DNA from: an uncultured Alphaproteobacteria bacterium
GTDB taxonomy: Bacteria > Pseudomonadota > Alphaproteobacteria > Caulobacterales > Aquidulcibacteraceae
DNA: 41,786 bases
Assembly (NCBI GenBank): GCA_937967725.1
Contig: CALBSY010000298.1
Span: 1 to 41,786 of the forward strand
Direction: 5' to 3'
The notes beneath the pieces were generated by a model, which was given only the letters and a program-made list of their open reading frames with translations, ran no database searches and was not told the origin of the DNA. Positions 11,193 through 25,671 of this stretch are shown here, in pieces; position 1 is the first letter of the stretch, and the number at the start of each line of letters is the position of its first letter. The position numbers and the translations under genes are program-made.

Positions 11193-11380
11193 GCATTTTC
11201 GCGGACTTCTCTCAGCCAGCCATCATGCAAACCACCCTGCATGAAGCCGAGCGCTTAGCCTTTGAGGACGCAAAGGACATGGTTCTCGCGCGCGCTGAGC
11301 TGGCAACCGTCGATCACCGGGGCAAGCGCCTCTCGGAGAGAAAATGGCGCGACCACATGAACTTCATCGGGAGCCTGTGA
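11189..11380 (+). CDS. Hypothetical protein (MSIFADFS)
   Basis: ATGA overlap. Confidence 0.6.
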   Translation: MSIFADFSQPAIMQTTLHEAERLAFEDAKDMVLARAELATVDHRGKRLSERKWRDHMNFIGSL

Positions 11381-11381
11381 G

Positions 11382-11615: not shown

Positions 11616-11833
11616 AAGCCTGCGGCTCCTGCGTCCATCTCAGACGCCTCACAGACCCCATAGAGGCCAGAGCAACCCTGCTCGTAGGGATCTGCGCGCT
11701 CAATGTCCGATCCTATTCCCGCGCTCCTGTGGTCGCGGAGGATTCAGGGATCATGTGCCGCGATTTCGAGTGCGCCTCAGAAGCGCGTGCGGAAGCGGTG
11801 TTCCGGCAATTCGCTGAGGAGGAGGCCTTGTGA
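11612..11833 (+). CDS. Small Cys-rich protein
   Basis: CGSCVH...GIC...CRDF; ATGA overlap. Confidence 0.6.
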   Translation: MKACGSCVHLRRLTDPIEARATLLVGICALNVRSYSRAPVVAEDSGIMCRDFECASEARAEAVFRQFAEEEAL

Positions 11834-11869
11834 AACGGAAAGCGGCGCGGGTGTCCCTCCCGCGCCGCT
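11831..11869 (-). terminator. Intrinsic terminator-like hairpin, best read on the minus strand
   Basis: AGCGGCGCGGG-N7-CCCGCGCCGCT perfect 11-bp stem; minus-strand tail TTCCGTTTC. Confidence 0.55.
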
Positions 11870-11989
11870 CGCGAATGACTCGCGCCGATAATCTCCCGAC
11901 CCTCGAAGCCCAGGAGACCCGCTCAATATGAAGCGATTTCACGTTAAACACAAGTGCCGCCCCCAAGATGTTGTGCATGGGGGCGCCTG

Positions 11990-13402
11990 TTGACCAAATC
12001 CCTGCCACATAATTTGGAAGCGGAACAAGCACTGCTTGGGTCGCTGTTGTTCGACAACCGATTGCTCGAGCACGTCGGAGACCTGCGCGCCGAGCATTTT
12101 TTCGACCCTGTGCATGGTCGCATCTTCGCGGCGATCTCCGATGGCGTAGCGCAGGGCAGGCTTGTTGACGGGATAGCCCTCAAAGAGTGGGCGCAGCGCG
12201 ACCCCGGCGTCGTCCAGGTCGGCGGGGCGCGATACCTGATGATGCTGATGTCCTCCGCTGCGGCGATTACCCCGCAAACGCAGGCCTACGCCGACATGAT
12301 CCGCAGCCTGTCGCTCCGGCGCGCGATTGTCGGCGCTTGCCGCGACGCGGCGGCGCTGGCGATGGACCCGCCTGAGGACATGGACGCCGAGACCCTTCTG
12401 ATAGAGGCCCAGCGCTCCCTGAGCGGGCTTGGAGACGATGGCGGAGACGGGGAGGGGGCATGGCGCTCCGCCGCTGAGATAGCCCTGGCGGCCGTTGAGC
12501 GCGCCTACGCAGGCCAAGCCAAGGGGATCACCACCGGCCTGCCGAGCCTTGATGATTGCACGGGCGGGGGGCGGCCGGGCACGCTCTGGGTGATCGGCGG
12601 CGCTACGTCGATGGGCAAGTCCGTTGGCGGCCAGCAGCTCGCCGTGAACGTCGCTCGCAAAGGCTATGGCGTGGCCTACATCCACCTTGAGATGGATCAC
12701 GATGAGGTCGGGCTCCGGCTCGCCGCTGGCGTCGCCTACGAATACAAGCGCCGCAATGAGTGGGGCGCGCGCGCTAACCCCCATTATCTCGCGGCTGCGA
12801 ACCAAGCCCTGAAAGATGACCAATGGGTGCGCCTGCGGGACGCCGCCAAAAACGTCATGCCGAACCTCAAAATCTATGTGGACGATCGCCCAGGCCGCAC
12901 TGTGACGCAGATCGAATCCGCGGTGATGCGTCTTTTTCAGAAAATGCGCCGGGACGGGGTGACGCCCGGCCTCATCGTCGTTGACCACGAAGGCCTCATC
13001 GCCCCGGAGGGCAAGCACCCCTCCGAGCTGGAGGCCGCGCGCGCCCGCGCCAACCGCCTGAAAGACATGGCAAAGCGCCTAGGCGTTTGGACTGTGGCCC
13101 TCTCCCAGATCACCAAAGAGGGGAGCCGGGCGGACGGCGAGGAACGCCTGCCTCAGTCCACCGACCTCAACTACGGAAGCGCGCTCTCACAAGCCGCCCA
13201 CGTCGTCATCCTCATCCATCGGAAGGCCTACTACGCAGAACGAAAGCCGCATTCCGCCAGAACGGAGGAAGATATCAGGATGACTAAATCCCTCGAGACC
13301 ACGCTCGTCGTGGATAAAGCCCGCGGCGGACGCAGAGCCCACGTCGCCGCCCAAATGGACGTCGCCTCGGCCGTCCTCATTGAATCGGATGAGGCGCCAT
13401 GA
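11990..13402 (+). CDS. dnaB: Replicative DNA helicase, DnaB family
   Basis: LPHNLEAEQALLGSLL, Walker A GGATSMGKS, LEM, IVVDH, ALSQ, DKARGG; TTG start inferred. Confidence 0.95.
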   Translation: MTKSLPHNLEAEQALLGSLLFDNRLLEHVGDLRAEHFFDPVHGRIFAAISDGVAQGRLVDGIALKEWAQRDPGVVQVGGARYLMMLMSSAAAITPQTQAYADMIRSLSLRRAIVGACRDAAALAMDPPEDMDAETLLIEAQRSLSGLGDDGGDGEGAWRSAAEIALAAVERAYAGQAKGITTGLPSLDDCTGGGRPGTLWVIGGATSMGKSVGGQQLAVNVARKGYGVAYIHLEMDHDEVGLRLAAGVAYEYKRRNEWGARANPHYLAAANQALKDDQWVRLRDAAKNVMPNLKIYVDDRPGRTVTQIESAVMRLFQKMRRDGVTPGLIVVDHEGLIAPEGKHPSELEAARARANRLKDMAKRLGVWTVALSQITKEGSRADGEERLPQSTDLNYGSALSQAAHVVILIHRKAYYAERKPHSARTEEDIRMTKSLETTLVVDKARGGRRAHVAAQMDVASAVLIESDEAP

Positions 13403-13923
13403 GCAGTCTTGTGCATATTATCCCCCGCACGGAGCGCCCCGACTGGGCCGGCCCCGCATGGCCAGATTTCAGCGACGCCGACAAAACGCTGCTGAACGTC
13501 ATCTTCGACCTCCGCCTTAAGCGGTTAGACCATGCGGTGTTCGGCCGCCTGCTTGAGGCTTATGGTTTCGGACAGTTTGTGCTGGATCGGAAAGAGGCTG
13601 AGCGTGTCGCGGCCATGTTGGCGGATTGGGGGCGAAACGCCACGCTGAACAAGGTTGCGCTCTCAATCAAGCGGTTGGCGCGCTTTGGGCATATCAGCTC
13701 TGTCACCGAAGAGGTGTTCCGCCTAGGTATCGAACGCAAGGCCATAGCCAGAAAGCTCCGGCAGGAAGTTATGGAGCGCGACCAGTCAACCTGTCGGCTC
13801 TGCGGCGCAACAAGCAACCTGCAGATCGACCACATTCTTGCCCGCACAAAAGGCGGGGAGAACACAGCCGATAATCTGCAAGTCCTTTGTGTGACGTGCA
13901 ACGTCAGAAAGGGCAATGCATGA
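13399..13923 (+). CDS. HNH endonuclease with N-terminal helical (possibly wHTH) domain
   Basis: RDQSTCRLCG...IDHILARTKGGENTADNLQVLCVTCNVRKG. Confidence 0.88.
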   Translation: MSSLVHIIPRTERPDWAGPAWPDFSDADKTLLNVIFDLRLKRLDHAVFGRLLEAYGFGQFVLDRKEAERVAAMLADWGRNATLNKVALSIKRLARFGHISSVTEEVFRLGIERKAIARKLRQEVMERDQSTCRLCGATSNLQIDHILARTKGGENTADNLQVLCVTCNVRKGNA

Positions 13924-14186
13924 GCCTCTTCGCCACCATCAAGGCCTATGCGGCCAGCATTGATCCCGTCGCCAAGCTGGCGCTCATCGAGATTGCGGAC
14001 TGGGCGGACGACGCCGGCCGGGCGCCCGTTGTCATCAGCCAAATCGCCACGTTCGCGGGGTGCTCAGACATCGAAGCCGAGAAGGCGGTCGATCGCCTGA
14101 TCCGCGCCGGCCTCATTGAGCCTCAGCCGCTCGACGGGCGGGGCCGGCGCTTCGTCACCTTCACGGGGGGCGAAGATGGCAATTAA
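13920..14186 (+). CDS. Winged-HTH protein resembling an initiator N-terminus
   Basis: AKLALIEIADWADDAG...IATFAGCS...AVDRLIRAGLI. Confidence 0.7.
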   Translation: MSLFATIKAYAASIDPVAKLALIEIADWADDAGRAPVVISQIATFAGCSDIEAEKAVDRLIRAGLIEPQPLDGRGRRFVTFTGGEDGN

Positions 14187-15138
14187 GGCCCTGGAGTGGG
14201 CGTGGGAGCAGGACATCCCTCGCTCTGAGCGTGACGTGCTCATGGTGCTCGCCAACGCGATCAACAAAGACGACGAGTTCGCCTACCCCTCACAAGAGGT
14301 CATCGCGCGCAAAGTGCGGATGAGCGAGCGCCATGTGCGCCGTCTTATCCAGGCGCTCGAGGGGCGCGGCTTGGTTCGGACCATGCCTGGTCATGGCAAG
14401 GGTAGGGGCCGGGCGCCGACCCGCTACTTCCTCGCCTGCGACCACCGGACCGGGGAGGAGCGCAACCTCACAACCGGACATGAGGGTCCGCCTGTGGGCT
14501 CACAACCGGACCTCACAGGCATGCCGTCATGTCCGCCTGTGACGTCACAACCGGACAAGGGGTGTCCGGTACATATAAAGGAACCGGAAGTAGCTAGAGC
14601 TAAACCTGAAAAGAAAGAGCCTAAGACAATTAAGGCCCCTAGGCCGTCCGCGAAGATCGGCCCCGATGGGTTGCCCATGGACGGCCGTGTCGCGTTCGAG
14701 GAATGGGTCGCAGCGGCCAAGCGATCTGGCTGGAAGGTTCCGCGGGGAACGGCCGCCGCTCAAAGCGATCAGCGCAAGACCGTCATCCGCGCGCGGCTGC
14801 GCGAGTTCGGCATGACCGGATGGCGCGAGCAAATCGCGCTGGCGGAATCGCAGCCGTTCCTTGGCGGCGACAACAGCGATGGCTGGAGCATGGGCCTGGA
14901 CTGGTTTCTGAAGCGCGCAAACTGGCAGAAGGTCGGGGAGCAATGCTACCTGCGCAATGGCCGCAAGAAGCCCGCCTTGCCGGAGTCTGTGACGCCTGAG
15001 GAATGGCGCCGCCGCCTCGCGAACTACGAGCACGACGGCTCGTGGAGTTCGAGCTACGGGCCACGTCCTGGGCAAGAGGGCTATGCCGGCCCGCCGCTGC
15101 GGCGTTCATCCAATGAGCACGGGAGCGTGGCGGCATGA
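14176..15138 (+). CDS. Replication initiator (lambda-O-like, N-terminal wHTH)
   Basis: VLMVLAN...AYPSQEVIARKVRMSERHVRRLIQALEGRGLV; internal iterons; C-terminal FLGGDNSDGWSMGLDWFLK. Confidence 0.88.
   Translation: MAIKALEWAWEQDIPRSERDVLMVLANAINKDDEFAYPSQEVIARKVRMSERHVRRLIQALEGRGLVRTMPGHGKGRGRAPTRYFLACDHRTGEERNLTTGHEGPPVGSQPDLTGMPSCPPVTSQPDKGCPVHIKEPEVARAKPEKKEPKTIKAPRPSAKIGPDGLPMDGRVAFEEWVAAAKRSGWKVPRGTAAAQSDQRKTVIRARLREFGMTGWREQIALAESQPFLGGDNSDGWSMGLDWFLKRANWQKVGEQCYLRNGRKKPALPESVTPEEWRRRLANYEHDGSWSSSYGPRPGQEGYAGPPLRRSSNEHGSVAA
14468..14635. repeat. Probable replication origin: iterons inside the initiator gene
   Basis: TCACAACCGGAC at 14468, 14500 and 14545; inverted variants GTCCGCCTGTG at 14486 and 14531; A-rich tract after 14571. 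Confidence 0.78.
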
Positions 15139-15317
15139 GCGGCGACGGGCTCGGGATGGATCGCGAAGCGTTCGAGGAGCGCATGCGGCTGTGGACCCCG
15201 CTCAAGGCCGCGCTGATGGCTAAGCTTGGGGCGTTGGGGGCCGCGCGCTGGCTTGAGTACGCAGCGCGCCAGATACGGCGCGAGCATAACCTACCGGCTG
15301 AGGAGAGACGCCCATGA
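15135..15317 (+). CDS. Hypothetical protein
   Basis: ATGA overlaps at both ends. Confidence 0.6.
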   Translation: MSGDGLGMDREAFEERMRLWTPLKAALMAKLGALGAARWLEYAARQIRREHNLPAEERRP

Positions 15318-15790
15318 GCGACTGGAACCCCGAATACCTTGAGTTCGCGCGCAGGCTCTACACGATCCACGGCCTGAGCGCGGGGCAGATTTCGCAAAAG
15401 CTGGCGGAGCTGGGCTTCAACGTATCTCGCTCGGCTGTGATCGGGAAGCTCACGCGCGCCGGCGTCATGGGCAATGTGGACGCGCACACAAAGCGCGAGC
15501 GCTGGCGTCAGACCACCGCGCACGCCAATCACCGGAGGCCCGCGACGAAGAAAGCGATCGCCCAACGCTCCGGGCCTCTGCTGGTGGCCGCGCCGGTCAA
15601 AACCGGAGCCCCAAAGCGCGGGCCTAACTCGATCCGGTTTCTGGACCGCTCCCACTACCAGTGCGCCATGTTCTGCGAAGGGGAGGAGGGAAGCGAGGGA
15701 TATGTCTGCGGCGAGCCTGCGGTCAAAAGCTCATGGTGCGCGCGCTGCCTCCGCATCGTCGCTGATCCGGTGCAGAAGCGGGTGGCTTGA
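15314..15790 (+). CDS. gcrA: Full-length GcrA-like transcription regulator
   Basis: W...GLSAGQIS...VSRSAVIGKLTR N-domain plus QCAMF...VCGEP...WCARC C-domain. Confidence 0.8.
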   Translation: MSDWNPEYLEFARRLYTIHGLSAGQISQKLAELGFNVSRSAVIGKLTRAGVMGNVDAHTKRERWRQTTAHANHRRPATKKAIAQRSGPLLVAAPVKTGAPKRGPNSIRFLDRSHYQCAMFCEGEEGSEGYVCGEPAVKSSWCARCLRIVADPVQKRVA

Positions 15791-15799
15791 GCACTTGGC

Positions 15800-15830
15800 T
15801 GAATCTCCCGTTAACCGGTTCGCTTAAACT
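15800..15830 (+). promoter_or_regulatory. Candidate CtrA-dependent promoter: TGAA-N7-TTAACC with overlapping GANTC and -10-like TAAACT
   Basis: One mismatch to TTAA-N7-TTAAC; located about 25-40 nt upstream of ATG 15840. Confidence 0.45.
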
Positions 15831-15839
15831 CTCGCGCCT

Positions 15840-16694
15840 ATGCAAGCCCTCGCTGAAAACCCGCGCGCCGTGATCGGCCACAACCAGGCGGACGATTTCG
15901 ATTTCATCTCCGCGCGCATGATCGAGCGCGGCGCGCGCATCATCCAATGGGTGTGGCCTCAGCTTGACGATGTGCTGGCCAAGCGCAAGGGCGGGATCAC
16001 GCTGGGCGCGCGCCATGTGCTGTTCTACTGCCTGCGCGATGTGGTTCCCCAGGCGGTGCTGGCCGACTTCGCCGGGCTCAACCGCAAGACTGCGGGGGAG
16101 GGCGCGCAACGCCCGGCCGCTTGGGCCGAAGAGGACGAATGGTTCGCGGAGCACTTGGAGCGCGTGCGCCAGCTCGTGGTGGGCTACGCCCATTTGGATG
16201 AGCAAGCCTTTGCCGAGCGCCTGGTTGAGCTCGTGGACACAGATCCATACCGGCGACGGCTCGAGCAGCAGCGCAAGGACCACGAGATGGCGGCACAGGA
16301 GGCAGAGCGCGCCGCCGCGGAATTGGAGGAGCGCAAAAGGATACGGGGGCTGGCCTCGCTCAAGCGCTCGCTCAAAGGCAACCCGCGCGCGGACGCCATC
16401 ATGGCCGAGCAGTATGGAGCCAGGCACATCGCCAAGACGCTCTCACGGGAGGCGCTGGGCGTGCTCGCCACCATCCACGCCAAGGAAGCAAAGCACCTCC
16501 GCCAGCCCACCAGCGCCTATTGCGAGATGGGTTTGCGCGAGTGCCTGAGGCTCGGGATCGCGCGCAACGCTGAGCCGCACCTGTCCAAATCCACCGATCC
16601 GATCATAGGCCCAACCCAGTTCGGAGCCCGCGTTTACGCCGAAGCGTTGGGGCTTGAGCTTGTCGTGAAGCCCAAGCGAAACGCCGCTTCCTGA
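15840..16694 (+). CDS. Putative transcription regulator with DnaA C-terminal-like HTH, coiled coil and possible C-terminal winged helix
   Basis: ARHVLFYCLR...LADFAGLNRKTAGEG...EDEWFAEHLERV resembles DnaA domain IV; last gene before the late region. Confidence 0.6.
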   Translation: MQALAENPRAVIGHNQADDFDFISARMIERGARIIQWVWPQLDDVLAKRKGGITLGARHVLFYCLRDVVPQAVLADFAGLNRKTAGEGAQRPAAWAEEDEWFAEHLERVRQLVVGYAHLDEQAFAERLVELVDTDPYRRRLEQQRKDHEMAAQEAERAAAELEERKRIRGLASLKRSLKGNPRADAIMAEQYGARHIAKTLSREALGVLATIHAKEAKHLRQPTSAYCEMGLRECLRLGIARNAEPHLSKSTDPIIGPTQFGARVYAEALGLELVVKPKRNAAS

Positions 16695-16725
16695 ACCCCT
16701 CAGCCAACCCCCGTTCTGGTATTAT
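16692..16725 (+). promoter_or_regulatory. Late-promoter motif 1 (TGAACCCCTC-N18-TATTAT)
   Basis: Member of a six-copy family. Confidence 0.65.
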
Positions 16726-16843
16726 TCTATGGTCAGAGCCGACATCGCCCGACGTTGACGCGCTCGCACACAAAGTTGGTATTTGGAACGGAGTGGCCAG
16801 GAATGTTCGGGCGGTTGCGGACTGATTGGGTGCGGGGTGTGTG

Positions 16844-17122
16844 ATGGAGGTAACTCTTCCCCTCGACCTCCTCATAGAGGGCGCGGTCCTGGTCGCAGCG
16901 CTCGCCGGCATCTGGGCAATGGTCAAGTCAGAACTGAGAGACCTTCGCCGCCAAGTGGACGCGCACGGCCCAGATGTCAGAAAGATCATCCCCCTCGAAA
17001 CCCGCATAGAGCAATTCGAGAAGCGCATAGACGACGCAGTGGCAGGCCTCCGCGCTGACATGAAGGGCGTCGCCGCAGGCCTCCAGGAACTCGCCGTGGC
17101 TGTCGCGAGAAAAACCCAATGA
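16844..17122 (+). CDS. Membrane protein (one TM plus coiled coil), possibly lysis-related
   Basis: LLIEGAVLVAALAGIWAMV followed by heptad repeats. Confidence 0.7.
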   Translation: MEVTLPLDLLIEGAVLVAALAGIWAMVKSELRDLRRQVDAHGPDVRKIIPLETRIEQFEKRIDDAVAGLRADMKGVAAGLQELAVAVARKTQ

Positions 17123-17334
17123 CCGCCCCACGCTATTACCCCCGCTACCACTCCAAAGCCCAAAACTTCCAAGGCGACCTCTATGTCGTGATCGACTCCC
17201 GCATCAACGAAGAGGTCTCTTCCCCTAAGCCCTATCACGACGCGAACAATGAAGCCGGCCAGAGAAACGAGGGCACATTCGGCGCACTCTCCATGGCTGA
17301 CTGGGTTCCGGGGATGAACTTGCCCGCGCCATGA
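17119..17334 (+). CDS. Hypothetical protein
   Basis: ATGA overlap; stop lies in motif 2. Confidence 0.6.
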   Translation: MTAPRYYPRYHSKAQNFQGDLYVVIDSRINEEVSSPKPYHDANNEAGQRNEGTFGALSMADWVPGMNLPAP

Positions 17335-17365
17335 ACCCCGCGCATTTGATTTCACGCCTGATAAT
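17332..17365 (+). promoter_or_regulatory. Late-promoter motif 2 (TGAACCCCGC-N18-GATAAT) upstream of terS
   Basis: Read directly. Confidence 0.75.
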
Positions 17366-17374
17366 TCAAACGTC

Positions 17375-17869
17375 ATGGCTGAAATCAAACAGTCCAAGCG
17401 CGGCGGCGCTCGCAACGGGGCAGGGCGTAAGCCCAAGGCCTCCAGCGACGAGCCAGCCAAGATGGGCCGCCCCAGCCATTTCACCCAGGACATTGCCGAT
17501 CGCATCTGCCTCATGCTGGCGGAGGGTAAGACCCTCACTAAGATATGCGACATGGCGGACATGCCCGACCGCTCCACTGAATGGAGATGGAGGCAGGCGC
17601 GCGAGGACTATCGCAACGCTGTCGCACGCGCGAGAGAGGAAAGGGCGCACGCCTGGGCCGAAGAGGTGGTGGACATCACCGATGATTGCCCGGTCGATAC
17701 GGCTTCTGTGGCCAAGGCCAGGCTCCGGGTGGACGCGCGGCTCAAGATCATGGCCAAGCACGCGCCCAGCCTCTACGGCGACAAAGCGTCAGTGGAGGTG
17801 ACCGGCAAGGATGGCGGCCCGGTAGTGACAGAGGTTCGGCGTGTCATCGTTGACCCTGCAAACGCCTAG
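17375..17869 (+). CDS. terS: Terminase small subunit (Sf6-like)
   Basis: MGRPSHFTQDIADRICLMLAEGKTLTKIC...MPDRST, ARLRVDAR, YGDK, EVTGKDGGP. Confidence 0.92.
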   Translation: MAEIKQSKRGGARNGAGRKPKASSDEPAKMGRPSHFTQDIADRICLMLAEGKTLTKICDMADMPDRSTEWRWRQAREDYRNAVARAREERAHAWAEEVVDITDDCPVDTASVAKARLRVDARLKIMAKHAPSLYGDKASVEVTGKDGGPVVTEVRRVIVDPANA

Positions 17870-19163
17870 GGTCTTTGCGCCGCTGCTTGAGCCGTCTCGG
17901 TACAAGGGCGCGCATGGAGGCCGGGGCTCGGGCAAGTCCCATTTTTTTGCCGAACTCATGCTTGAGCGCGCGCTGATGAAGCCGGGGTTTCGCGGGGTGT
18001 GTATCCGCGAAGTGCAAAAGACCCTGGCCCAATCCAACAAGAAGCTGCTCGAGGACAAGATCGCAGAGCACGGGCTGGCGCGCGAGGGCTTCAAGCCCTG
18101 GAACGACTGCATCGAGACCCCGGGCGATGGGATCATCCTGTTTCAGGGGATGCAGAACCACACCGCGGAGTCGATCAAGTCGCTGGAAGGGATCGACGTG
18201 GCCGACATCGAGGAGGCCCAGACCCTCAGCGATCACAGCCTCACGCTGCTGCGCCCGACCATTCGCGCGCCGGGCTCGGAGATATGGGGGCGCTGGAACC
18301 CGCGCCGCAAGAAAGACCCCATCGATGTGTTCCTGCGCCAGAACCGGCCCGGCAACGCCATCGTGGTGCAAGCCAATTGGCGCGACAACCCGTGGTTCCC
18401 GCCAGAGCTGAACGAAGAACGTCTGCTGGATCTGGAGAAGTACCCCGATCGCTACGAGCACGTCTGGGAGGGCGGCTACGTCACCGTGTTCGAGGGGGCC
18501 TATTACGCCAAGTGGATCGCCAAGGCCAAATCCGAGGGGCGCATCACCGAGATTTCGCGCGACAGCCTGGCGGAGGTGCGCGCCTATTTCGACCTCGGCG
18601 GCTCCGGGGCTGTGGCGGACGCAACCGCTATCTGGATCGTGCAATTCGTCGGCATGAAGATCCTGATCCTCGACTACATCGAGGGGGTGGGCCAGGTGCT
18701 CGGCTATTACGCCGGACAATTGCGGGCGCGCGGCTGGCAGGATGCGCTGTGCGTTCTGCCTCACGACGCCAGCCAGGTTCACGCCGACAATCCCACCGGG
18801 GTCAATTACGCCGCGCAGATGAAGGCGGCCGGGTTTCGCACCCGCACCGTTCCCAATGCGGGGAAGGGGGCCGCCATGCTGCGCATCGAGGCCGGCCGGC
18901 GCTGGTTCGACCGCATGTATTTCAACACCACCAAGGGCGCCGATGGGGTGGACGCAACCGAGGCGGGCCGTGAAGCGCTCGGCGCCTATCACGAGAAGCG
19001 CTCGACCGATGATCGGGACGTAGGTCTTGGCCCCAACCATGACTGGTCATCGCACGGGGCCGATGCGTTCGGCCTGATGGCGCTCGATTACCGGGAGCCG
19101 AGCGATCACATTCGCAATGGCAGGCCCAGCCATTATCGCACCGGCGGGGCGATCTTGGGCTGA
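17841..19163 (+). CDS. terL: Terminase large subunit
   Basis: Walker A GGRGSGKS, CIREVQ, IEEAQ, WNP, FDLG, C-terminal HDWSSHGADAF. Confidence 0.97.
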   Translation: MSSLTLQTPRVFAPLLEPSRYKGAHGGRGSGKSHFFAELMLERALMKPGFRGVCIREVQKTLAQSNKKLLEDKIAEHGLAREGFKPWNDCIETPGDGIILFQGMQNHTAESIKSLEGIDVADIEEAQTLSDHSLTLLRPTIRAPGSEIWGRWNPRRKKDPIDVFLRQNRPGNAIVVQANWRDNPWFPPELNEERLLDLEKYPDRYEHVWEGGYVTVFEGAYYAKWIAKAKSEGRITEISRDSLAEVRAYFDLGGSGAVADATAIWIVQFVGMKILILDYIEGVGQVLGYYAGQLRARGWQDALCVLPHDASQVHADNPTGVNYAAQMKAAGFRTRTVPNAGKGAAMLRIEAGRRWFDRMYFNTTKGADGVDATEAGREALGAYHEKRSTDDRDVGLGPNHDWSSHGADAFGLMALDYREPSDHIRNGRPSHYRTGGAILG

Positions 19164-19194
19164 ACCCCGCGCAAGTCCTTGGCGGGATTATCCT
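19161..19194 (+). promoter_or_regulatory. Late-promoter motif 3 (TGAACCCCGC-N18-TATCCT)
   Basis: Read directly. Confidence 0.72.
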
Positions 19195-19200
19195 GACCCC

Positions 19201-19413
19201 ATGTCACTGTCCGGTCTGTTTGCGCTCTCGAAAACCAAGAAGCCCAAGGCGCCGGCGCAATCGCCGCCGCCTCCGCCCCCGCCCACGATCGATGAGGCGG
19301 CGATGAATGAGGAAGCGTCACGCAAATATCGCCGCCGCCGCGGCATCCGCGCCAACATCACCGGCGCGGGCGGGGAAACCGCCTCCGTCGCCTCCAAGCA
19401 ACTCCTGGGGTAA
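19201..19413 (+). CDS. Small Pro-rich virion-associated protein preceding the portal gene
   Basis: PPPPPPP...RRRRGIRANI...KQLLG C-terminus typical of pre-portal genes in this phage group. Confidence 0.8.
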   Translation: MSLSGLFALSKTKKPKAPAQSPPPPPPPTIDEAAMNEEASRKYRRRRGIRANITGAGGETASVASKQLLG

Positions 19414-19417
19414 GCCC

Positions 19418-21124
19418 TTGGCCTATGACGCCAATTCGGTAGAGGGCCGCGAACGCGCCGAGACCCTGATGCGCCGGCACGCCGAGATGGAGAGCGAGCG
19501 CGCCAATTGGGATATTCTGTGGGAGCGGATAGCCGAGATCGTATTCCCGCGCGCCTCGGAAGCCTTCATCACCAAGCCCCAATACCAGGGCGAGCTGAAA
19601 GGGGAGAAGGTTTTCGACAACACCCCGACCCTGGCGCTGGATAAGTTCGCCAGCGCAACGGGATCGATGCTCACCCCAGACACCGGCCAATGGCATGGCC
19701 TGCGCGCTACGGATGAGGATCTGCAGGACGACGAAGAGGTCAAGGAATATCTGGAACTGGCCGCGCGCATGCTGTTTGACGCGCGCTACGCTCCGCACAC
19801 CAATTTCTCATCCCAGGCGCACGAGTGCTGGCTTTCCAACGGAGCCTTCGGCACCTGCGCCATGTTTGTGGATGAGGCGCTGGGGCGCAATCTGCGCTAT
19901 CGCTCCATGCACCTCTCCCAAATCTACATCGGGGAAAACCACCAGGGCCAGATCGATCGCGTCCACCGCGGCAAGTTCCGGCTCAAGGCCTACCAGGTCG
20001 CCCAGCACGCCAACGACCCCAACCCCAGCCGTCGCTGGGCCATTCCGCCTTGCGTGCAAAAGGCGCTCGACTCCAACCGGCCCAACGATGAGTTCGAGTT
20101 CCTGCATTGCGTCTATCCGAACCTGGCGGTGGACGATCGCTTTGCCGACTTTCGCGGCATGGCCTACACCAGCGTTTACATTTCCTGCACCGACAAGATG
20201 ATCGTGCATGAGGGCGGCTATCGCACCATGCCGTATGCTGTGGGCCGCTACACCACCGGCCCTGGCGAGACCTATGGCCGCTCTCCCGCAATGACGGTGT
20301 TCCGCGACATCCTCATGCTGCAGGAGATGAACAAGAGCGTCATCCGCCAGGCGCAACTGAGCCTCGAGCCGCCGCTGCTGCTGTCGGATGAAACCGCTCT
20401 TGCGCCCTGGCAGATGGACCCCAAGGCGCTCAATTACGGCTACCTCACCGAGGATGGGACGCCGCTGGTGCAAGCGCTCCGGCCCGAGGGCGATCTTGGG
20501 GTCGGGCTCGAAATGATCCAAGACCGCCGCCAAGCGGTCAATGACGCCTTCTTGGTGACGCTGTTCCAAATCCTGGTGGACCGGCCAAATATCACCGCCA
20601 CCGAAGCGCTGCTCCGCGCCCAGGAGAAGGGCCAGCTTCTTGGCCCCACGCTGGGCCGGCAGCAAAGCGAGTTCCTGAGCACGGTGATTGAGCGCGAGCT
20701 CGACATCCTCTCCGCCGCTGGCGTGCTCCCGCCCATGCCCGATGTGCTGATGGAGCGGGGCGGGGCGGTGGCTATCGAGTTCCGCTCGCCGCTCAACAAG
20801 CTTCAGCGCGCCGATGATGCGGTCGGCATCCTGCGCGGCATCGAGGCCCTGGCCCCGATCGCGGCGGTGGATCCCACCATCTACAAGCGCATCGACCTCT
20901 CGAAAGCCTCCCGCATCGTGTTCGAGGCCAGCGGCGCTCCGGCCGATGTGCTCCGCACCGATGATGAGATCGCGGAGATGGAGGCCCAGGAACAGCAGCA
21001 GGTTGACCTGGACAATCTGGCCAGGCTGGCCCCGGCCGGCGCGCGCGCGGCCAAGGACATTGCCCAGGCTGAGGCGACGGCGGCCAATATTCCGCAACCG
21101 ATTCCGCAGGTGCAGCCCGCGTGA
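19418..21124 (+). CDS. Portal (head-tail connector) protein
   Basis: GAFGTCAMFV, GETYGRSPA, TATEALLRAQEKGQLLGPTLGRQQSEFL; TTG start inferred. Confidence 0.95.
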   Translation: MAYDANSVEGRERAETLMRRHAEMESERANWDILWERIAEIVFPRASEAFITKPQYQGELKGEKVFDNTPTLALDKFASATGSMLTPDTGQWHGLRATDEDLQDDEEVKEYLELAARMLFDARYAPHTNFSSQAHECWLSNGAFGTCAMFVDEALGRNLRYRSMHLSQIYIGENHQGQIDRVHRGKFRLKAYQVAQHANDPNPSRRWAIPPCVQKALDSNRPNDEFEFLHCVYPNLAVDDRFADFRGMAYTSVYISCTDKMIVHEGGYRTMPYAVGRYTTGPGETYGRSPAMTVFRDILMLQEMNKSVIRQAQLSLEPPLLLSDETALAPWQMDPKALNYGYLTEDGTPLVQALRPEGDLGVGLEMIQDRRQAVNDAFLVTLFQILVDRPNITATEALLRAQEKGQLLGPTLGRQQSEFLSTVIERELDILSAAGVLPPMPDVLMERGGAVAIEFRSPLNKLQRADDAVGILRGIEALAPIAAVDPTIYKRIDLSKASRIVFEASGAPADVLRTDDEIAEMEAQEQQQVDLDNLARLAPAGARAAKDIAQAEATAANIPQPIPQVQPA

Positions 21125-21543
21125 AGTTTGTAATTCTCGTTCTGTTTGTAATCGCCGCTTTGGCCTTCGTTTCCCGTGAAGCGTGGCGGCGTCTCAGCCC
21201 GCCCCGCAAGCGCGCCTTCATGGGCGCTGTGAGCCGTTCGGCGGCGCTGGTGCGCAACCAGGCCATCGCCATGCGCCAGCGCCTCATGCGCAAGCAGAGC
21301 GCGTTCAGGGCGCTGTTCCTCGGTGATGACGGCGATCTCTCCCCGCAGGGCCAGATCGCGCTCTCCCACCTCTCGCGCTTTTGTTACGCCTTCGCCACAA
21401 CCGCGCATGGCAAGGCAGACCGCGACGAGCTGATGAGACGGGAAGGGCGCCGGCAAGTCTGGATCGAGGTGATGCGCTTGCTTTCGCTTGATCCGGTGGA
21501 TGCGCTCAACGCGGCCAAGCTGGATGAGCCTGTGCTGGGCTGA
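21121..21543 (+). CDS. Bbp19-like protein with hydrophobic N-terminus
   Basis: GQIALSHLSRFC...REGRRQVWIEV; located between portal and scaffold. Confidence 0.75.
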   Translation: MKFVILVLFVIAALAFVSREAWRRLSPPRKRAFMGAVSRSAALVRNQAIAMRQRLMRKQSAFRALFLGDDGDLSPQGQIALSHLSRFCYAFATTAHGKADRDELMRREGRRQVWIEVMRLLSLDPVDALNAAKLDEPVLG

Positions 21544-21573
21544 ACCCCGCCCGCGCGAATAACCCCCGACACT
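21541..21573 (+). promoter_or_regulatory. Late-promoter motif 4 (TGAACCCCGC-N17-GACACT) upstream of the scaffold gene
   Basis: Box exact; -10 weaker and one base closer. Confidence 0.6.
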
Positions 21574-21608
21574 GAGGCTTCCTCCAACCAGTGAAGGAAG
21601 CTTTTTGC

Positions 21609-22505
21609 ATGTCAACTGAACCCGCGTCCCCGGCGCAAGCCGGCCAAGGCGCTGAAGGACAAGTCTCTCCTCCGGCGCAACCAAACCCGGAAGCCTCCGC
21701 AACCCCGCCCGAGCCGCCGCCGGAGCCGTTCTACAAATCGCTCAAGGACGAAACCTTGCGCGGCTACGCCGAACTCAAGGGCTACAAGCAGACCGATGGC
21801 GTGGCCTTCTCCGAGGCGCTGCTCAAATCCTACCAGAACCTCGAAAAGCTGCGCGGCGTTCCCGCCGAGCGGCTGCTGACGCTGCCTGAGAACTTGGAAG
21901 ATGCCGAGGCCATGGGCCCGATCCGCGAGCGGCTGGGCTTTGCTCCCCCGAAAGAGGCCAAGGAATACGGCTTCGCAACGGTCGAAGGGGTGGACCCCAA
22001 CCGCGCCACAGTGCTCGAGGGCCTGGCGCACAAGCACGGCGTTCCCGCCAAGATGGCGCAAGGCTTCTTCCAAGAGCTGGCGCAGCTTGAGAAAGCCGAG
22101 ATCACCGCGCAGGAGACCAAGTACGCCGAGGAACTGGCGGCTGAAAAGTCCAGCCTCAAGAGCGATCTGGGCGACAAGTGGGATGCGTTCCTGGAGACCG
22201 CCCGGCGCGCGCAGCGCCGGTTCGGGCTCGATGACGAAGGCATCGCCGCGCTCGAGGACTCGCTCGGCTATGCCAAGGCCATGCGCTACTTCGCCCAGGT
22301 GGGCGAGGCCATGGGCGAAGCCCCCGTCATCGGCGCGGAGAAAAAGGACTCGGCCTTCATGGGCCCCGAGGCCGCCAAGGTCCGCATCGCGGAACTCAAA
22401 TCCAACCAGGAATGGGTGGGCCGCTACCTGGCCGGCGACAAGGCTGCTCAGGCTGAAATGCGCCGCCTGCAGGAAATCGCACACCCCGGAGTTAAAACGT
22501 CATGA
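21609..22505 (+). CDS. Capsid scaffolding/assembly protein
   Basis: Pro/Ala-rich N-terminus, LLKSYQNLEKL, helical body; position before the capsid gene. Confidence 0.85.
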   Translation: MSTEPASPAQAGQGAEGQVSPPAQPNPEASATPPEPPPEPFYKSLKDETLRGYAELKGYKQTDGVAFSEALLKSYQNLEKLRGVPAERLLTLPENLEDAEAMGPIRERLGFAPPKEAKEYGFATVEGVDPNRATVLEGLAHKHGVPAKMAQGFFQELAQLEKAEITAQETKYAEELAAEKSSLKSDLGDKWDAFLETARRAQRRFGLDDEGIAALEDSLGYAKAMRYFAQVGEAMGEAPVIGAEKKDSAFMGPEAAKVRIAELKSNQEWVGRYLAGDKAAQAEMRRLQEIAHPGVKTS

Positions 22506-22699
22506 TCCAAGGTCTTTCCAAGCGGGCGCTGCTGCGCCTTGAACTCATCCGCATCGTGGATTCCGATGGCCGCGTGGTCTCGGCCAACCTCCAGCGCGTG
22601 TACGAATACGAGAAAGCGTTTGAGGCCCTGCTCGAGGACGAGCCGCAGGCCGAGGCTTCAGCCCCGACGCCGGCCAAGGTCGCCGCCAAGAAGGGCTGA
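22502..22699 (+). CDS. Small hypothetical protein
   Basis: ATGA overlap; stop lies in motif 5. Confidence 0.6.
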   Translation: MIQGLSKRALLRLELIRIVDSDGRVVSANLQRVYEYEKAFEALLEDEPQAEASAPTPAKVAAKKG

Positions 22700-22730
22700 A
22701 CCCCGCACGCTTAAAACCGCGCTTCATAAT
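22697..22730 (+). promoter_or_regulatory. Late-promoter motif 5 (TGAACCCCGC-N18-CATAAT) upstream of the capsid gene
   Basis: Read directly. Confidence 0.78.
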
Positions 22731-22872
22731 GCTCATCACTGGGACAACCGCATGCGGCCCCGGTGATGAGCGTGAATCGCTCGGCTGCGCCCGCCTCAGG
22801 GCGTAGGGGCCCCAACGGACAACCCCGCTCCAAACCCAAGGATCAACAACCCTCTGAGCGGGGATACGCACA
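22731..22872 (+). promoter_or_regulatory. Structured 5' leader of the capsid gene (four hairpins, duplicated GGACAACC/GGCCC loop)
   Basis: Base-pairing traced manually. Confidence 0.65.
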
Positions 22873-23751
22873 ATGTCGGCCAATTTGCCTTCCCATTTCG
22901 TGGAGACCTACGCCACGAACATGCAGCTTTTGCTGCAGCAAAAAGACTGCCGCTTCCTGCCCTACGTGATGACCGGAACCCATGTCGGGACCGGCGCCGC
23001 GGCGGTGGATCAAGTCGGCACGATCGAAACCCAGGACGTGACCAGCCGCTATCCGGACATCACCCAACAGGATGTGCCGGTTGATCGCCGCTGGGTCTAT
23101 CCGCAAGCCAAGTACACCTCGTTCCTGATCGACAAGTTCGAGGAACTGCAAACCCTCATCGACCCCAAGGCGAGCTACACCGAGACCGCCGCCAACGCCA
23201 TGCGCCGCAAGAAAGATGACGTCATCATCGACGCCTTCTTCGCCGCGGCCGCGACCGGCACGCGCGGGGGCACCTCCACCTCGTTCCCTTCGGCCCAGCA
23301 GGTCGGTGTGGACGTGGGCGGCACGGCCTCTGGCCTCAACGTGGAAAAGCTGCTGGCGGGCCAGGAAATCCTGCGCGCCGGCCATGTTGATCCCGATGAG
23401 CCGGTGTTCTGCGCCCTGGCGGCCAAGCAGATCCGCGATCTGATGAAGGAAGTCCAGGTCACATCGTCTGACTTCAACAACGTCAAGCCGTTGGCTGAAG
23501 GCAAGATCGTGTCGTTCCTGGGCATCACCTTCATTCCCACCCAGCGCCTCGACGTGGACGGCTCCAGCCGCCGGCGTCTGCCGATGTGGGTGAAGTCCGG
23601 CATGCACTTCGGCGTGTGGCAGGACGTCTCCACCGACATCAGTCAGCGCCGCGATAAGGTCGGCCACCCCTGGCAGGTCTATCACGACATGATGATCGGC
23701 GCGACCCGGCTCGAAGAGGGCAAGGTCGTTGAGATCAAGTGCGCTGAGTGA
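22873..23751 (+). CDS. Major capsid protein
   Basis: FVETYATNMQLLLQQK, AANAMRRKKDDVII, VTSSDFN, SFLGITFI, GATRLEEGKVV. Confidence 0.93.
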   Translation: MSANLPSHFVETYATNMQLLLQQKDCRFLPYVMTGTHVGTGAAAVDQVGTIETQDVTSRYPDITQQDVPVDRRWVYPQAKYTSFLIDKFEELQTLIDPKASYTETAANAMRRKKDDVIIDAFFAAAATGTRGGTSTSFPSAQQVGVDVGGTASGLNVEKLLAGQEILRAGHVDPDEPVFCALAAKQIRDLMKEVQVTSSDFNNVKPLAEGKIVSFLGITFIPTQRLDVDGSSRRRLPMWVKSGMHFGVWQDVSTDISQRRDKVGHPWQVYHDMMIGATRLEEGKVVEIKCAE

Positions 23752-23778
23752 TCGACAGAGATTTGAGGAGATAAGACT

Positions 23779-24303
23779 ATGGCTGTAGCCAACACCAAAT
23801 CCACCTCGGTCACGAACGCGGACAACACCGGCACGGCGTCTCACGCCTTCTCGGCCGCGCTTCGCACCGGGTACGAGCCTCGCACCGCCATGGAAACGGC
23901 GGCGGTGCTTGCGGCTGACGACGACACCAGCGTCTATCGCTTCTTCCGGGTTCGCTCGGACGCGATCATCACCTCAATCGAGGTGTATAACGACGCCATC
24001 ACCTCCGGCACCGATTACGATTTCGGGGTCTATCAGACGGCCGGCAATGGCGGCGCGGTCGTGGACGCCGATCTCTTCGCTGATGGGGTGGATATGTCGT
24101 CCGCGCGCGTCACGCCCTTGCAGGTGCGTTTCAACGACACCGCCACGGCCAAGATCGAAGAGTTCACCAAGCCGCTCTGGCAGCTTCTGGGGCTCTCCGC
24201 CGATCCCAAGCGTGATTACGACCTCTGCTGGACCGCCAACACGGTGGGCTCGGCGGCCGGCGACATCACGACCAAGATCGAGATGTATCTGCCCGGCGCG
24301 TAA
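23779..24303 (+). CDS. Capsid cement/decoration protein
   Basis: Beta-rich 174-aa protein directly after the capsid gene; GAGGAG RBS. Confidence 0.75.
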   Translation: MAVANTKSTSVTNADNTGTASHAFSAALRTGYEPRTAMETAAVLAADDDTSVYRFFRVRSDAIITSIEVYNDAITSGTDYDFGVYQTAGNGGAVVDADLFADGVDMSSARVTPLQVRFNDTATAKIEEFTKPLWQLLGLSADPKRDYDLCWTANTVGSAAGDITTKIEMYLPGA

Positions 24304-24311
24304 TGCAGGGA

Positions 24312-24336
24312 GGGGCGGGGCCTAAAGCTCCGCCCC
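24312..24336 (+). terminator. GC-rich hairpin after the capsid/cement genes (no U tract)
   Basis: GGGGCGGGGC-CTAAA-GCTCCGCCCC. Confidence 0.4.
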
Positions 24337-24357
24337 AACCGCTTGGAGAAGTGTGCA

Positions 24358-24555
24358 ATGACGGATCGTTTTTACAGCGTCGTGCTGGGCGAGAGCGCCC
24401 CGCAAGAGGTGACGGAAGGCAGTTCCACCTCGAGCGAGGCGATCGAGCTGCGCGTTGAGTTCGACGCCAGCGGCATGAACAAAGCAGCGGTGGTGCTCGG
24501 GCTGGAGGCGATCAAAGCCTACATCCTGCGCGACGCCTGGCCGCCGAACACTTAA
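24358..24555 (+). CDS. Small virion-associated protein
   Basis: GGAG upstream of ATG 24358; structural context. Confidence 0.7.
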   Translation: MTDRFYSVVLGESAPQEVTEGSSTSSEAIELRVEFDASGMNKAAVVLGLEAIKAYILRDAWPPNT

Positions 24556-24569
24556 GGGGCTTAAAGGCA

Positions 24570-24878
24570 ATGAGCACGCTCGAACGAGTTTACCGCGACC
24601 AGGGCGGGTGCAATTACGTCGATCTGTCTGGGTCGATCGCCACCGGCGGGACGGCGCAGACCTTGGTTGCGGCCAATGCAGGGCGCGATCACGTTTTCAT
24701 CGGCAACCCGAACAGCTCGGGCTCGCTTTGGGTGAATGACCTTGGCGGAACCGCCGCGGCGAACGGGGCCGGCTCGACCGAAATCCCGCCCGGGGATGTG
24801 GTCAAGACCCGCGCCCGCAACGCCATTTCCATTATTCACGCCGACACCGGCGCGAAGTTCACGGCAGGGGAGGCCTGA
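24570..24878 (+). CDS. Small beta-rich virion protein
   Basis: SGSIATGGTAQTLVAANAGR...NPNSSGSLWVN; structural context. Confidence 0.75.
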   Translation: MSTLERVYRDQGGCNYVDLSGSIATGGTAQTLVAANAGRDHVFIGNPNSSGSLWVNDLGGTAAANGAGSTEIPPGDVVKTRARNAISIIHADTGAKFTAGEA

Positions 24879-24879
24879 T

Positions 24880-25332
24880 ATGGAGCCGCGTTCCTTTCCC
24901 GGCTTGTCCCTGGCTGACCTCAACGTCACCGCCACTGCGGACGAGCTCAATCTCAACGACAACCTGGTTGCTTCGGTTTCCTGGTCTGTCGCGGCCGGCG
25001 CTTCCAATGTGTGCGTGCTGACCGGCACGCTCAAGGATGCGGCGGGATCAACCATAGCCGCGTCGCGTCCGCTGCTGGTTTATATCTCGGAAGCCGCGAC
25101 CGGGATCGGCATCACCGCCGACACCTATTCGACCGGGGCCTCGATCACCACGGGGACGGCGCTTGTCACGCTGACCGCGAACAAGGCCTGGCTCATCAAC
25201 ACCCACACCGATGGGACGTTCGCCATCTCCATCACCGATTCGGCCAAGCCCGCCGATCAATATGCGGTGGCGGTCGATCCGCAATGGCAGTTGAGCGTGT
25301 CGGCGGCGTCCGCCGCTCTGTGGGGCGCCTGA
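24880..25332 (+). CDS. Putative head fibre/decoration protein
   Basis: VTATADELN motif; Thr/Ala/Ser-rich beta composition; GGAGG RBS. Confidence 0.7.
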   Translation: MEPRSFPGLSLADLNVTATADELNLNDNLVASVSWSVAAGASNVCVLTGTLKDAAGSTIAASRPLLVYISEAATGIGITADTYSTGASITTGTALVTLTANKAWLINTHTDGTFAISITDSAKPADQYAVAVDPQWQLSVSAASAALWGA

Positions 25333-25640
25333 TGCGTAGCCAATACAGCCACGTCTATTACGAGACCGTCGCCGCTTCCCAGACCGCGCAAGCGCTGGGG
25401 GCGGCCGGGGCCAAGGGCGACTACCTCGCCCAGATCGTCATCATCCCGGCGACGACTTCCCCTGGCGCGGTGTCGATCCTTGACGACGCCACCTCGATTT
25501 CGGTGTTCGCCGGCGGCGCGTCCAGCGTCACCGAGCTCAAGCCGATCGTGGTCACGCTTGGCCTCACCAGCAAGAACGGGGCGTGGAAAATCACCACAGG
25601 CGCCAACGTCTCCGTGATCGCCTGCGGGCAGTTTACCTGA
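25332..25640 (+). CDS. Small beta-rich virion protein (MRSQYSHV)
   Basis: TGATG coupling; stop lies in motif 6. Confidence 0.75.
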   Translation: MRSQYSHVYYETVAASQTAQALGAAGAKGDYLAQIVIIPATTSPGAVSILDDATSISVFAGGASSVTELKPIVVTLGLTSKNGAWKITTGANVSVIACGQFT

Positions 25641-25671
25641 ACCCCGCCTGAGGGTTGCGCGGCCTCATAAT
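25638..25671 (+). promoter_or_regulatory. Late-promoter motif 6 (TGAACCCCGC-N18-CATAAT) upstream of the tail genes
   Basis: Read directly. Confidence 0.78.

What the first reader, a model, noticed from the sequence alone, without database searches (positions are those of the whole stretch)
16692..25671. Six-copy late-promoter box that always begins with the upstream gene's TGA stop
Seen: TGAACCCCGC at 17332, 19161, 21541, 22697 and 25638, and TGAACCCCTC at 16692. In all six the TGA is the stop codon of the preceding gene. In five, a -10-like hexamer starts exactly 28 nt after the T (TATTAT, GATAAT, TATCCT, CATAAT, CATAAT); in the sixth it is 27 nt (GACACT). The boxes head the membrane-protein, terminase, portal, scaffold, capsid and tail units, and none has a canonical -35. 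Inference: an activator-dependent, multi-promoter late regulon with the box at about -40 to -31, instead of a single antiterminated late transcript. I do not recognise this motif from described phages.
Basis: partly seen in the sequence, partly recalled or inferred. Interest (0 to 1): 0.8.

Follow-up and report, generated by a model that had tools for sequence, protein, structure and literature searches.

The report
Phage late-promoter box, DnaA-fold activator
A bacterial virus places the same 8-letter DNA box at a fixed distance before predicted start signals of its particle-building genes, and a neighbouring phage protein predicted to fold like the DNA-reading end of the replication starter DnaA likely reads that box to switch those genes on; the overlap with stop codons is common in relatives but not fixed.

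Summary
Observation confirmed: six exact TGAACCCC[G/T]C copies (0.22 expected), all on upstream TGA stops, each 17-18 bp before a NANNNT hexamer, none with TTGACA. The window is a temperate alphaproteobacterial (Hyphomonadaceae-type) podophage. Six related phages keep the box at late-gene starts, but the conserved core is AACCCCGC. The TGA is not part of it: only 4 of 20 relatives' sites begin with a TGA stop, 4 lie inside genes, and a seventh site in this prophage's continuation contig begins with TAA. The pattern is confined to prophage contigs in two lysogens and nearly absent in three other genomes. The gene ending on the first box (15840-16694, no Pfam or PHROG family) has a confidently predicted DnaA-domain-IV fold (Z 11.7), like the gene-transfer-agent activator GafY, and sits just upstream of the late block in all seven phages. 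Best reading (0.65): it activates host sigma70 at several, often near-leaderless, late promoters. Main rival: the adjacent phage GcrA. No start site or binding was shown. The scan's earlier unchecked notes report the same kind of switch in other phages; my paper searches did not find it in print. New variant of a known kind.

The parts
16692..16725 (+). Box 1 (TG-AACCCCTC), 18-bp spacer, -10-like TATTAT; overlaps the stop of the candidate activator; heads the 98-aa membrane-protein gene
   Evidence: same position in G125, L054, L132
17332..17365 (+). Box 2, 18-bp spacer, GATAAT; terS ATG 9 nt later, no Shine-Dalgarno seen
   Evidence: kept before terS in G125 (CG-AACCCCGC, no stop overlap), L054, L195
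19161..19194 (+). Box 3, 18-bp spacer, TATCCT; ATG of the 70-aa pre-portal gene (19201-19413) 6 nt later
   Evidence: kept in G125, L025, L195
21541..21573 (+). Box 4, 17-bp spacer, GACACT; heads the scaffold-like gene
   Evidence: kept in G125, L195
22697..22730 (+). Box 5, 18-bp spacer, CATAAT; heads the structured leader of the major capsid gene
   Evidence: kept in G125, degenerate in L195
25638..25671 (+). Box 6, 18-bp spacer, CATAAT; tail tube A ATG 8 nt later
   Evidence: kept in G125 inside an open frame
15840..16694 (+). Candidate late activator, 284 aa: predicted DnaA-domain-IV fold (res 26-119), long helix (121-177), winged helix (190-275)
   Evidence: AF2 pLDDT 91.8; Z 11.7, rmsd 2.2 A to 3pvp; Z 8.0-8.4 to winged-helix proteins; no Pfam or PHROG hit
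15314..15790 (+). Full-length phage GcrA homologue (rival activator)
   Evidence: PF07750 46.3 bits, over cut-off; present in G125, L054, L132
17375..19163 (+). Terminase small and large subunits (unit of box 2)
19201..21543 (+). 70-aa gene, portal/head-tail connector, Bbp19-like gene (unit of box 3)
21591..22699 (+). Scaffold-like gene and 65-aa gene (unit of box 4)
22873..23751 (+). Major capsid protein (unit of box 5)
   Evidence: phrog_3437, PF19821
25680..28757 (+). Tail tubular proteins A and B (start of the unit of box 6)
   Evidence: phrog_394, phrog_376

Best explanation
The box AACCCCGC, 17-18 bp before a -10-like hexamer, is likely the binding site of the phage's own 284-aa protein (15840-16694), whose predicted DnaA-domain-IV fold would read the box and help host sigma70 RNA polymerase start at seven or more predicted late promoters that lack a normal -35. 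Shown: the box, its spacing, its conservation at late-gene starts in relatives, its confinement to prophage DNA, and the fixed place of the gene before the late block. Predicted: the fold. Inferred: that the hexamers are used -10 elements, that the protein binds the box at about -38 to -31 and activates rather than represses, and that several transcripts begin at or within about 3 nt of the start codon. The upstream stop codon overlaps the box likely because the genome is packed tight and the required AA can be shared with TGA or TAA.
For: (1) On the late strand of three relatives found by protein homology, AACCCCGC is followed by A..T at the -10 positions in 14 of 15 cases (G125 9/10, L054 4/4, L195 1/1), against 10 of 106 in host contigs and a 6-10% background. 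(2) A weight matrix from 20 non-window sites ranks the six window sites 1-6 (17.5-25.7 bits, next 14.2); its best hit in the other 2.61 Mb of G000 heads a tail-fibre gene on contig C332, which continues this prophage (phrog_684 positions 13-638 at the window's end, 662-837 at C332's start). (3) The full pattern occurs 8 of 8 times on the prophage contig of G125 and 5 of 5 on prophage contigs of G000; three other genomes of the genus have 0, 2 and 0. (4) A start codon lies 5-9 nt after the hexamer at 3 of 6 window sites, the C332 site and 10 of 20 relatives' sites. (5) The candidate gene lies just upstream of the late block in all 7 phages, including L054, whose terminase, portal and capsid gave no match to the window's. 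(6) A motif-only scan of viral contigs recovered this rare gene family in 3 of 158 locus records (L025, L100, L132). (7) Fold: Z 11.7, rmsd 2.2 A over 93 residues to DnaA domain IV; the top four rows are all DnaA; named viral fold matches are nearly all stand-alone 'DnaA C-terminal' phage proteins. The family profile also hits host DnaA domain IV and gafY-type genes beside sufE at E 2.5e-5 to 4e-3. (8) The DnaA base-reading stretch DHTT aligns with NRKT, NRKQ or DRGV; the Arg is shared with the GafY-type genes (DRTT, DRST) and kept in all 7 phages. Relatives that lack the winged helix keep the box, so the N-terminal domain is the part that tracks it. (9) GafY is a shown activator that binds sigma70 domains 3-4 (PMC11150451).
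Against: No transcript data and no binding data. The link between protein and box is co-occurrence, not co-variation: the box is nearly the same in all phages although the helix varies (NRKT, NRKQ, DRGV). A full-length GcrA also sits next to the candidate in 4 of the 7 phages. L195 and L196 show no clear box directly after the regulator gene, and their other boxes are degenerate. Sites in relatives were picked with a pattern taken from the window, so the matrix test is partly circular. Two motif-scan loci with 2-3 same-strand matches (L032, L146) have no such gene. Foldseek E-values to DnaA are weak (best 0.022), hhalign to host DnaA gave probability 6.7%, a profile search of PDB sequences found no DnaA, and the language-model feature search of residues 18-125 returned PolB-exonuclease-like clusters at 0.90 with low shared-feature counts, not DnaA. 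At the capsid site a conserved hairpin arm begins directly after the hexamer, so a transcript starting 7 nt later would lose part of it. The control phages are distant, and the family profile missed a known DnaA-IV gene in one of them (L200).
Confidence: 0.65

Rival explanations
1. The adjacent full-length phage GcrA (15314-15790), alone or with the 284-aa protein, reads the box with an altered specificity and activates sigma70.
For: GcrA is a sigma70 cofactor (PMC5887438 passages). A full-length copy lies near the candidate gene in the window, G125, L054 and L132. The window's TGAACCC shares TGA with the GcrA site YGAKTCG. Positions N34 and H41 differ from host GcrA in the window copy (S, T). 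GANTC is depleted in the window (46 seen, 139 expected).
Against: The TG is not conserved in relatives. R33, I37, K39 and R42 equivalents are host-like in all four phage copies, G38 in three. GcrA acts from sites up- or downstream of the start through a flexible linker, which fits a 17-18 bp spacing poorly. L195 has four boxes at late-gene starts but only a short GcrA DNA-binding piece in the 10 kb upstream.
Confidence: 0.13
2. The boxes are late promoters, but the factor is another phage protein or a host factor (host GafY, DnaA, or sigma70 reading CCCCGC as a poor -35), and the 284-aa protein does something else.
For: The window has other HTH genes (9814-10131, 10354-10914). The box matches the DnaA box TTATCCACA at 5 of 9 positions. 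The contig is cut at both ends.
Against: The pattern is nearly absent from host DNA, which argues against a host regulon. The two HTH genes gave no tblastn match in G125's contig or L054. No stand-alone PF08299 gene was found in G000, which is 76% complete.
Confidence: 0.12
3. The 284-aa protein binds the boxes as a repressor or timing brake that keeps late promoters silent, since the site covers the -35 region.
For: Site position overlaps where sigma region 4 binds. Earlier unchecked note e1-9728763 reads a phage DnaA-IV gene as a self-controlled switch.
Against: The promoters have no usable -35 consensus to block. The gene lies at the end of the rightward early/replication operon, under the CI-like switch (8260-9180), where late activators usually sit (recalled for lambdoid Q). 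The closest tested relatives, GafY and GafA, activate.
Confidence: 0.05
4. The motif is an RNA or translation signal tied to the stop codon (readthrough, frameshift, termination context or a processing site), not a promoter.
For: 6 of 6 window copies start on a TGA stop; 12 of 20 relatives' sites overlap or abut a stop.
Against: The stop occurs in four registers and three codons, 4 sites lie 3-13 nt past the stop and 4 inside reading frames. It does not explain the A and T at fixed 17-18 bp spacing. Rfam finds nothing in the window.
Confidence: 0.04

Closest known systems
GafY (CCNA_01111, also HdaB) of the Caulobacter crescentus gene transfer agent, and the N-terminal DnaA-like domain of Rhodobacter capsulatus GafA
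   Same: Stand-alone DnaA-domain-IV fold without the ATPase; acts at many promoters of virion genes (GafY: about 20 sites); sigma70-type promoters; Arg in place of DnaA's His in the recognition helix of the gafY-type genes aligned here.
   Different: Encoded by a prophage with its own replication genes; 284 aa with a long helix and a winged helix; box directly at the -35 region, whereas the GafY element lies at -123 to -113 and needs IHF; a clear 8-bp consensus, whereas none could be derived for GafY; no GafZ/DUF6456 partner found among 60 window ORFs.
DnaA domain IV and the DnaA box TTATCCACA
   Same: Fold (Z 11.7); basic loop and recognition helix align; box shares 5 of 9 positions.
   Different: No AAA+ domain; DHTT replaced by NRKT; G/C-rich box; single sites phased to -10 elements, not an origin cluster.
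Activator-dependent phage promoter sets: Mu C/Mor, P2 Ogr, P1 Lpa, T4 MotA middle promoters (recalled, no call)
   Same: Several promoters with a sigma70 -10, no canonical -35 and a phage-specific box at fixed distance.
   Different: Different box and a different predicted protein fold; no sequence match to those families in PHROGs or Pfam.
Phage-encoded GcrA homologues (phiCbK gp222)
   Same: The window encodes two PF07750 proteins.
   Different: In phiCbK the proposed role is on host replication genes (PMC3556154 passages); the box is not a GANTC site.

Membership tests
Activator-dependent sigma70 promoter set | -10 hexamer with A at position 2 and T at position 6 | tested here: met
   6 of 6 window sites; 14 of 15 unselected late-strand AACCCCGC sites in protein-selected relatives
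Activator-dependent sigma70 promoter set | No canonical -35; specific box at fixed phase | tested here: met
   spacer 17-18 bp
Activator-dependent sigma70 promoter set | Mapped start sites that depend on an activator | not testable with these tools
   needs 5'-end mapping and reporters
GafY/HdaB | DnaA-domain-IV fold without AAA+ domain | tested here: met
   (predicted model)
GafY/HdaB | Closer in sequence to GafY than to DnaA | tested here: inconclusive
   profile hits gafY-type genes (E 2.5e-5 to 9.6e-5) and DnaA (5e-5 to 4e-3) about equally; helix Arg shared with gafY-type genes; no tree built
GafY/HdaB | Chromosomal gene beside gafZ/sufE, about 140 aa | tested here: not met
   prophage gene of 284 aa between GcrA and the late block; gafY-type loci seen in L071, L076, L077
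GafY/HdaB | Far-upstream site (-123 to -113) with IHF | tested here: not met
   box at about -38 to -31 versus PMC11150451
GafY/HdaB | Direct contact with sigma70 domains 3-4 | not testable with these tools
   needs co-purification or two-hybrid
DnaA initiator | AAA+ domain and DHTT recognition motif | tested here: not met
GcrA regulon | Site is methylated YGAKTCG | tested here: not met
   core is AACCCCGC; consensus from PMC5887438
Single antiterminated late operon (Q or GafZ type) | Antiterminator gene and one late promoter | tested here: inconclusive
   no Q or DUF6456 hit among 60 window ORFs, but the contig is cut; an unplaced 63-aa ORF on C332 has a weak phrog_550 hit, E 0.009

The most novel reading that the evidence does not exclude
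These phages carry a free-living counterpart of the gene-transfer-agent activator GafY: a DnaA DNA-binding domain re-aimed from the DnaA box to AACCCCGC that replaces the -35 contact at each late promoter and drives largely leaderless virion-gene transcripts. It would show that the GTA master switch descends from a phage late-gene activator and would give the first defined box for this fold outside DnaA.
Probability: 0.35. Interest if true: 0.8.

Novelty: new variant of a known kind. Interest (0 to 1): 0.6.

Why it matters
Stand-alone DnaA-C-terminal genes are common in phages and are usually labelled replication initiators. Here one is tied to a defined 8-bp box at fixed phase before virion genes, which makes a late-activator role directly testable with one protein and a 45-bp reporter. 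No binding consensus could be derived for GafY in the two Caulobacter papers read, so a natural protein-box pair for this fold helps to ask how it picks DNA and how gene transfer agents gained their switch. It would also be a compact inducible promoter system for alphaproteobacteria.

Tried and rejected
Complex prediction of residues 18-135 with the host's sigma70 residues 430-605: no answer, score 0.01, controls not folded; no evidence either way. RNA runs for 15400-25300: none was listed. Capsid queries of viral and metagenome contigs gave only distant loci at 23-33% identity. The alignment of the seven closest homologues found nothing in genome contigs. Neither the 284-aa protein nor the 158-aa GcrA has a tblastn match in GenBank phages. 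Family-wide and order-wide genome searches gave one related prophage, G125, in 147 family genomes. Rfam: no match in the window. Intrinsic terminator scan: 8 found against 13.3 expected, none informative. Sigma32 reading (CTGAA as -35): rejected because TG is not conserved and the spacing to the -10 is about 8 nt too long for the recalled consensus. IHF reading of the GAAATCAAA repeat: the recalled WATCAA-N4-TTR consensus is not met by eye. The first structure model (7 sequences, pLDDT 68) was replaced by a 33-sequence model. No tree of the family against GafY and DnaA was built. Paper searches for a printed description found the GTA papers but no phage DnaA-IV late activator or this box; the library lacks most subscription journals, and supplements were not read.
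Full report
Observation. The six 10-mers are exactly where stated, all on the + strand, and there is no other TGAACCCC in the window. Shuffles give 0.22 on average and never more than 2. Each TGA closes an ORF. With 385 TGA triplets in the late half and 17-18 gene stops among them, that is p of 3-4e-9 (the script used 17, the list has 18 of 22). The hexamers lie 18 bp after the 10-mer in five sites and 17 bp in one. No sigma70 consensus promoter is called at these places.

What the window is. It is the whole of contig C298 of an assembly that is 76% complete. It holds a leftward recombination arm (YqaJ exonuclease, ERF), a CI-like repressor, a rightward arm with DnaB, a replication initiator and two GcrA homologues, then terminase, portal, scaffold, capsid, tail tubes and internal virion proteins of the short-tailed type. 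The nearest GenBank capsids are 37-47% identical (an uncultured spring phage, pelagiphage HTVC010P types, Ralstonia DU_RP_II). GcrA and GANTC depletion point to an alphaproteobacterial host; a genome record carrying a phage of this group is titled Hyphomonadaceae (L194).

Relatives. By protein homology I found a prophage in G125 (capsid 92% identical; 1 of 147 family genomes) and viral contigs L054, L195 and L196. By motif alone I found L025 and L100/L132, one phage. I collected 20 sites at late-gene starts from these six phages. Position 3 is A in 20 of 20, positions 7-8 are C in 20 of 20, and the core AACCCCGC varies little, while positions 1-2 vary (TG, CT, TA, GC, CG, GA, TC, GT). These sites were chosen with a pattern from the window, so I also counted without choosing: every late-strand AACCCCGC in G125, L054 and L195 has A and T at the -10 positions in 14 of 15 cases, against 10 of 106 in the host contigs of G000. 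The one exception belongs to a hairpin in the capsid leader. In the window the same count is 6 of 9.

Blind test and host control. A matrix trained without the window ranks the six sites first to sixth. Twelve sites in the other 2.61 Mb of G000 reach the lowest of those scores. The best, C332:2098, is TA-AACCCCGC, 18 bp, GATAAT, 8 nt, ATG of a tail-fibre gene; C332 continues the prophage. Of the next hits I looked at six, and none sits at a plausible gene start. In whole genomes the pattern AACCCCGC-N17/18-BAHWMT occurs 8 times in G125, all on the prophage contig and one strand, 5 times in G000, all on C298 or C332, and 0, 2 and 0 times in three other genomes of the genus.

The stop codon. Of the 20 relatives' sites, 8 begin on a stop (4 TGA, 4 TAA), 2 have TAA one base later, 1 has TGA one base earlier, 1 has TAG two bases earlier, 4 lie 3-13 nt past the stop, and 4 lie inside reading frames. 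The seventh site of this prophage uses TAA. Since 18 of 22 listed late genes end in TGA, six TGAs in six overlaps is not surprising (0.82^6, about 0.3). I infer that the box marks the 5' edge of the promoter, that spacer DNA has been trimmed up to it, and that its AA is shared with the stop at no cost.

Leaders. A start codon follows the hexamer by 9, 6 and 8 nt at terS, the 70-aa gene and tail tube A, by 8 nt at the tail fibre, and by 5-9 nt at 10 of 20 relatives' sites; no Shine-Dalgarno is seen before these four starts in G000, while genes inside units such as 23779 have one. With the usual 6-8 nt from -10 to +1 (recalled) these would be leaderless or nearly so. Leaderless mRNAs are widespread (PMC8459731, search listing and abstract start only). 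Such genes would be poorly translated from read-through RNA, which gives a reason for one promoter per unit; this is inference.

The candidate activator. The gene ending on box 1 has no Pfam or PHROG family. It has 6 close and about 46 wider homologues, unnamed or hypothetical in the 10 clusters looked up. A 33-sequence AlphaFold2 model (pLDDT 91.8) matches DnaA domain IV over residues 26-119 (Z 11.7, rmsd 2.2 A; the top four rows are DnaA) and winged-helix proteins over 190-277 (Z 8.0-8.4); Foldseek agrees with weak E-values (0.022, probability 1.0). The family profile finds host DnaA C-termini and three gafY-type genes beside sufE, one followed by a gafZ-like gene. E. coli DnaA reads bases with R399, P423, D433, H434, T435 and H439 (PMC2533591, one passage; PMC5043019 passages). 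The phage proteins put KRK, ARK, KRQ or KAR in the basic loop and NRKT, NRKQ or DRGV against DHTT; the gafY-type genes have DRTT and DRST. The gene lies just before the late block in all seven phages. L054 has different packaging and head genes yet keeps gene and boxes. The G125, L195, L196 and L025 proteins share only the N-terminal domain. Seven control loci, six with a related virion module and one with an ordinary DnaA-IV gene, have no hit to this family's profile and at most one site at the threshold, each on the opposite strand to the late genes; they are distant, and the profile missed the DHAT-type gene of L200, so this control is weak.

Results against. There is no co-variation of helix and box. 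A full-length GcrA neighbours the gene in four phages, although its base-reading residues are mostly host-like and L195 has boxes without a full copy in the 10 kb upstream. L195 and L196 lack a clear box right after the regulator. Among 158 motif-scan locus records, four had two or more same-strand sites, and two of them (L032, L146) lack the gene. hhalign to host DnaA gave 6.7%, the PDB sequence search found no DnaA, only 2 of 53 members match PF08299 at E up to 1, and the atlas feature search pointed to exonuclease-like clusters with low shared counts. The capsid-leader hairpin starts right after the hexamer.

Comparison. GafY is homologous to DnaA domain IV (PMC9632790 passages), binds about 20 regions, needs IHF, uses an element at -123 to -113, binds sigma70 domains 3-4, and yielded no MEME motif (PMC11150451, parts 1-3 of 9 and passages). 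GafA's DnaA-like N-terminus is needed for RcGTA activation (PMC9638019 passages). The phage protein likely works like these but fails membership on size, context and site position. Multi-promoter, activator-dependent phage regulons (Mu C, P2 Ogr, P1 Lpa, T4 MotA) are recalled, not checked. PMC11409702 does not mention gafA. PMC4647560 was seen as a listing; my term search in it returned nothing. Four searches found no printed phage DnaA-IV late activator. The scan's own unchecked notes describe the same kind of switch in six other genomes, mostly with DnaA-box-like sites and small proteins; my reading was noted before I saw them, and no note matched this DNA or protein.

Verdict. The element is real and very likely a phage-specific late promoter (about 0.9). 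The TGA link is a by-product of packing. The DnaA-fold neighbour is the likely activator (0.65 overall). New variant of a known kind; interest 0.6.

Noticed in passing
window 17345-17353 and 17381-17389: Inverted repeat TTTGATTTC ... GAAATCAAA flanks the terS -10 and start; related copies at the terS start in G125, L054, L195 and L025. Candidate pac site or TerS operator.
   Followed up: partly
window 22731-22872: Capsid leader with conserved hairpins and two GGACAA repeats in the window, G125 and L195; 9 of 39 consensus pairs show a double change in 3 sequences; no Rfam match. Possible translational control element.
   Followed up: partly
window 24312-24336: 10-bp G+C hairpin after the 174-aa gene that follows the capsid gene, without a U run; may step down the capsid transcript.
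   Followed up: no
window 10911-11192 and 15314-15790: Two GcrA homologues, one with only the DNA-binding domain; GANTC sites are about three-fold depleted in the window and two-fold in the rest of the genome.
   Followed up: partly
window 39913-41786 and G000:C332 (L197): The last window ORF is a separate virion gene (phrog_684) cut by the contig end and continued on C332, which carries the tail-fibre gene with a seventh box at C332:2098.
   Followed up: yes
G125:C10 (box at 10770 of the reversed contig) and L132 (1969 of the reversed locus): Weaker box plus hexamer sites (14.0 and 11.8 bits) lie 50-70 nt before replication genes; none above 9.2 bits in window 9000-16600.
   Followed up: partly
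window 32438-39880: 2480-aa internal virion protein with an LPD23 domain and endolysin-like PHROG matches.
   Followed up: no
L195 and L196, just after the regulator gene: Both share AAGCTCGCAAG..TTAA before the membrane-protein gene instead of a clear box.
   Followed up: no
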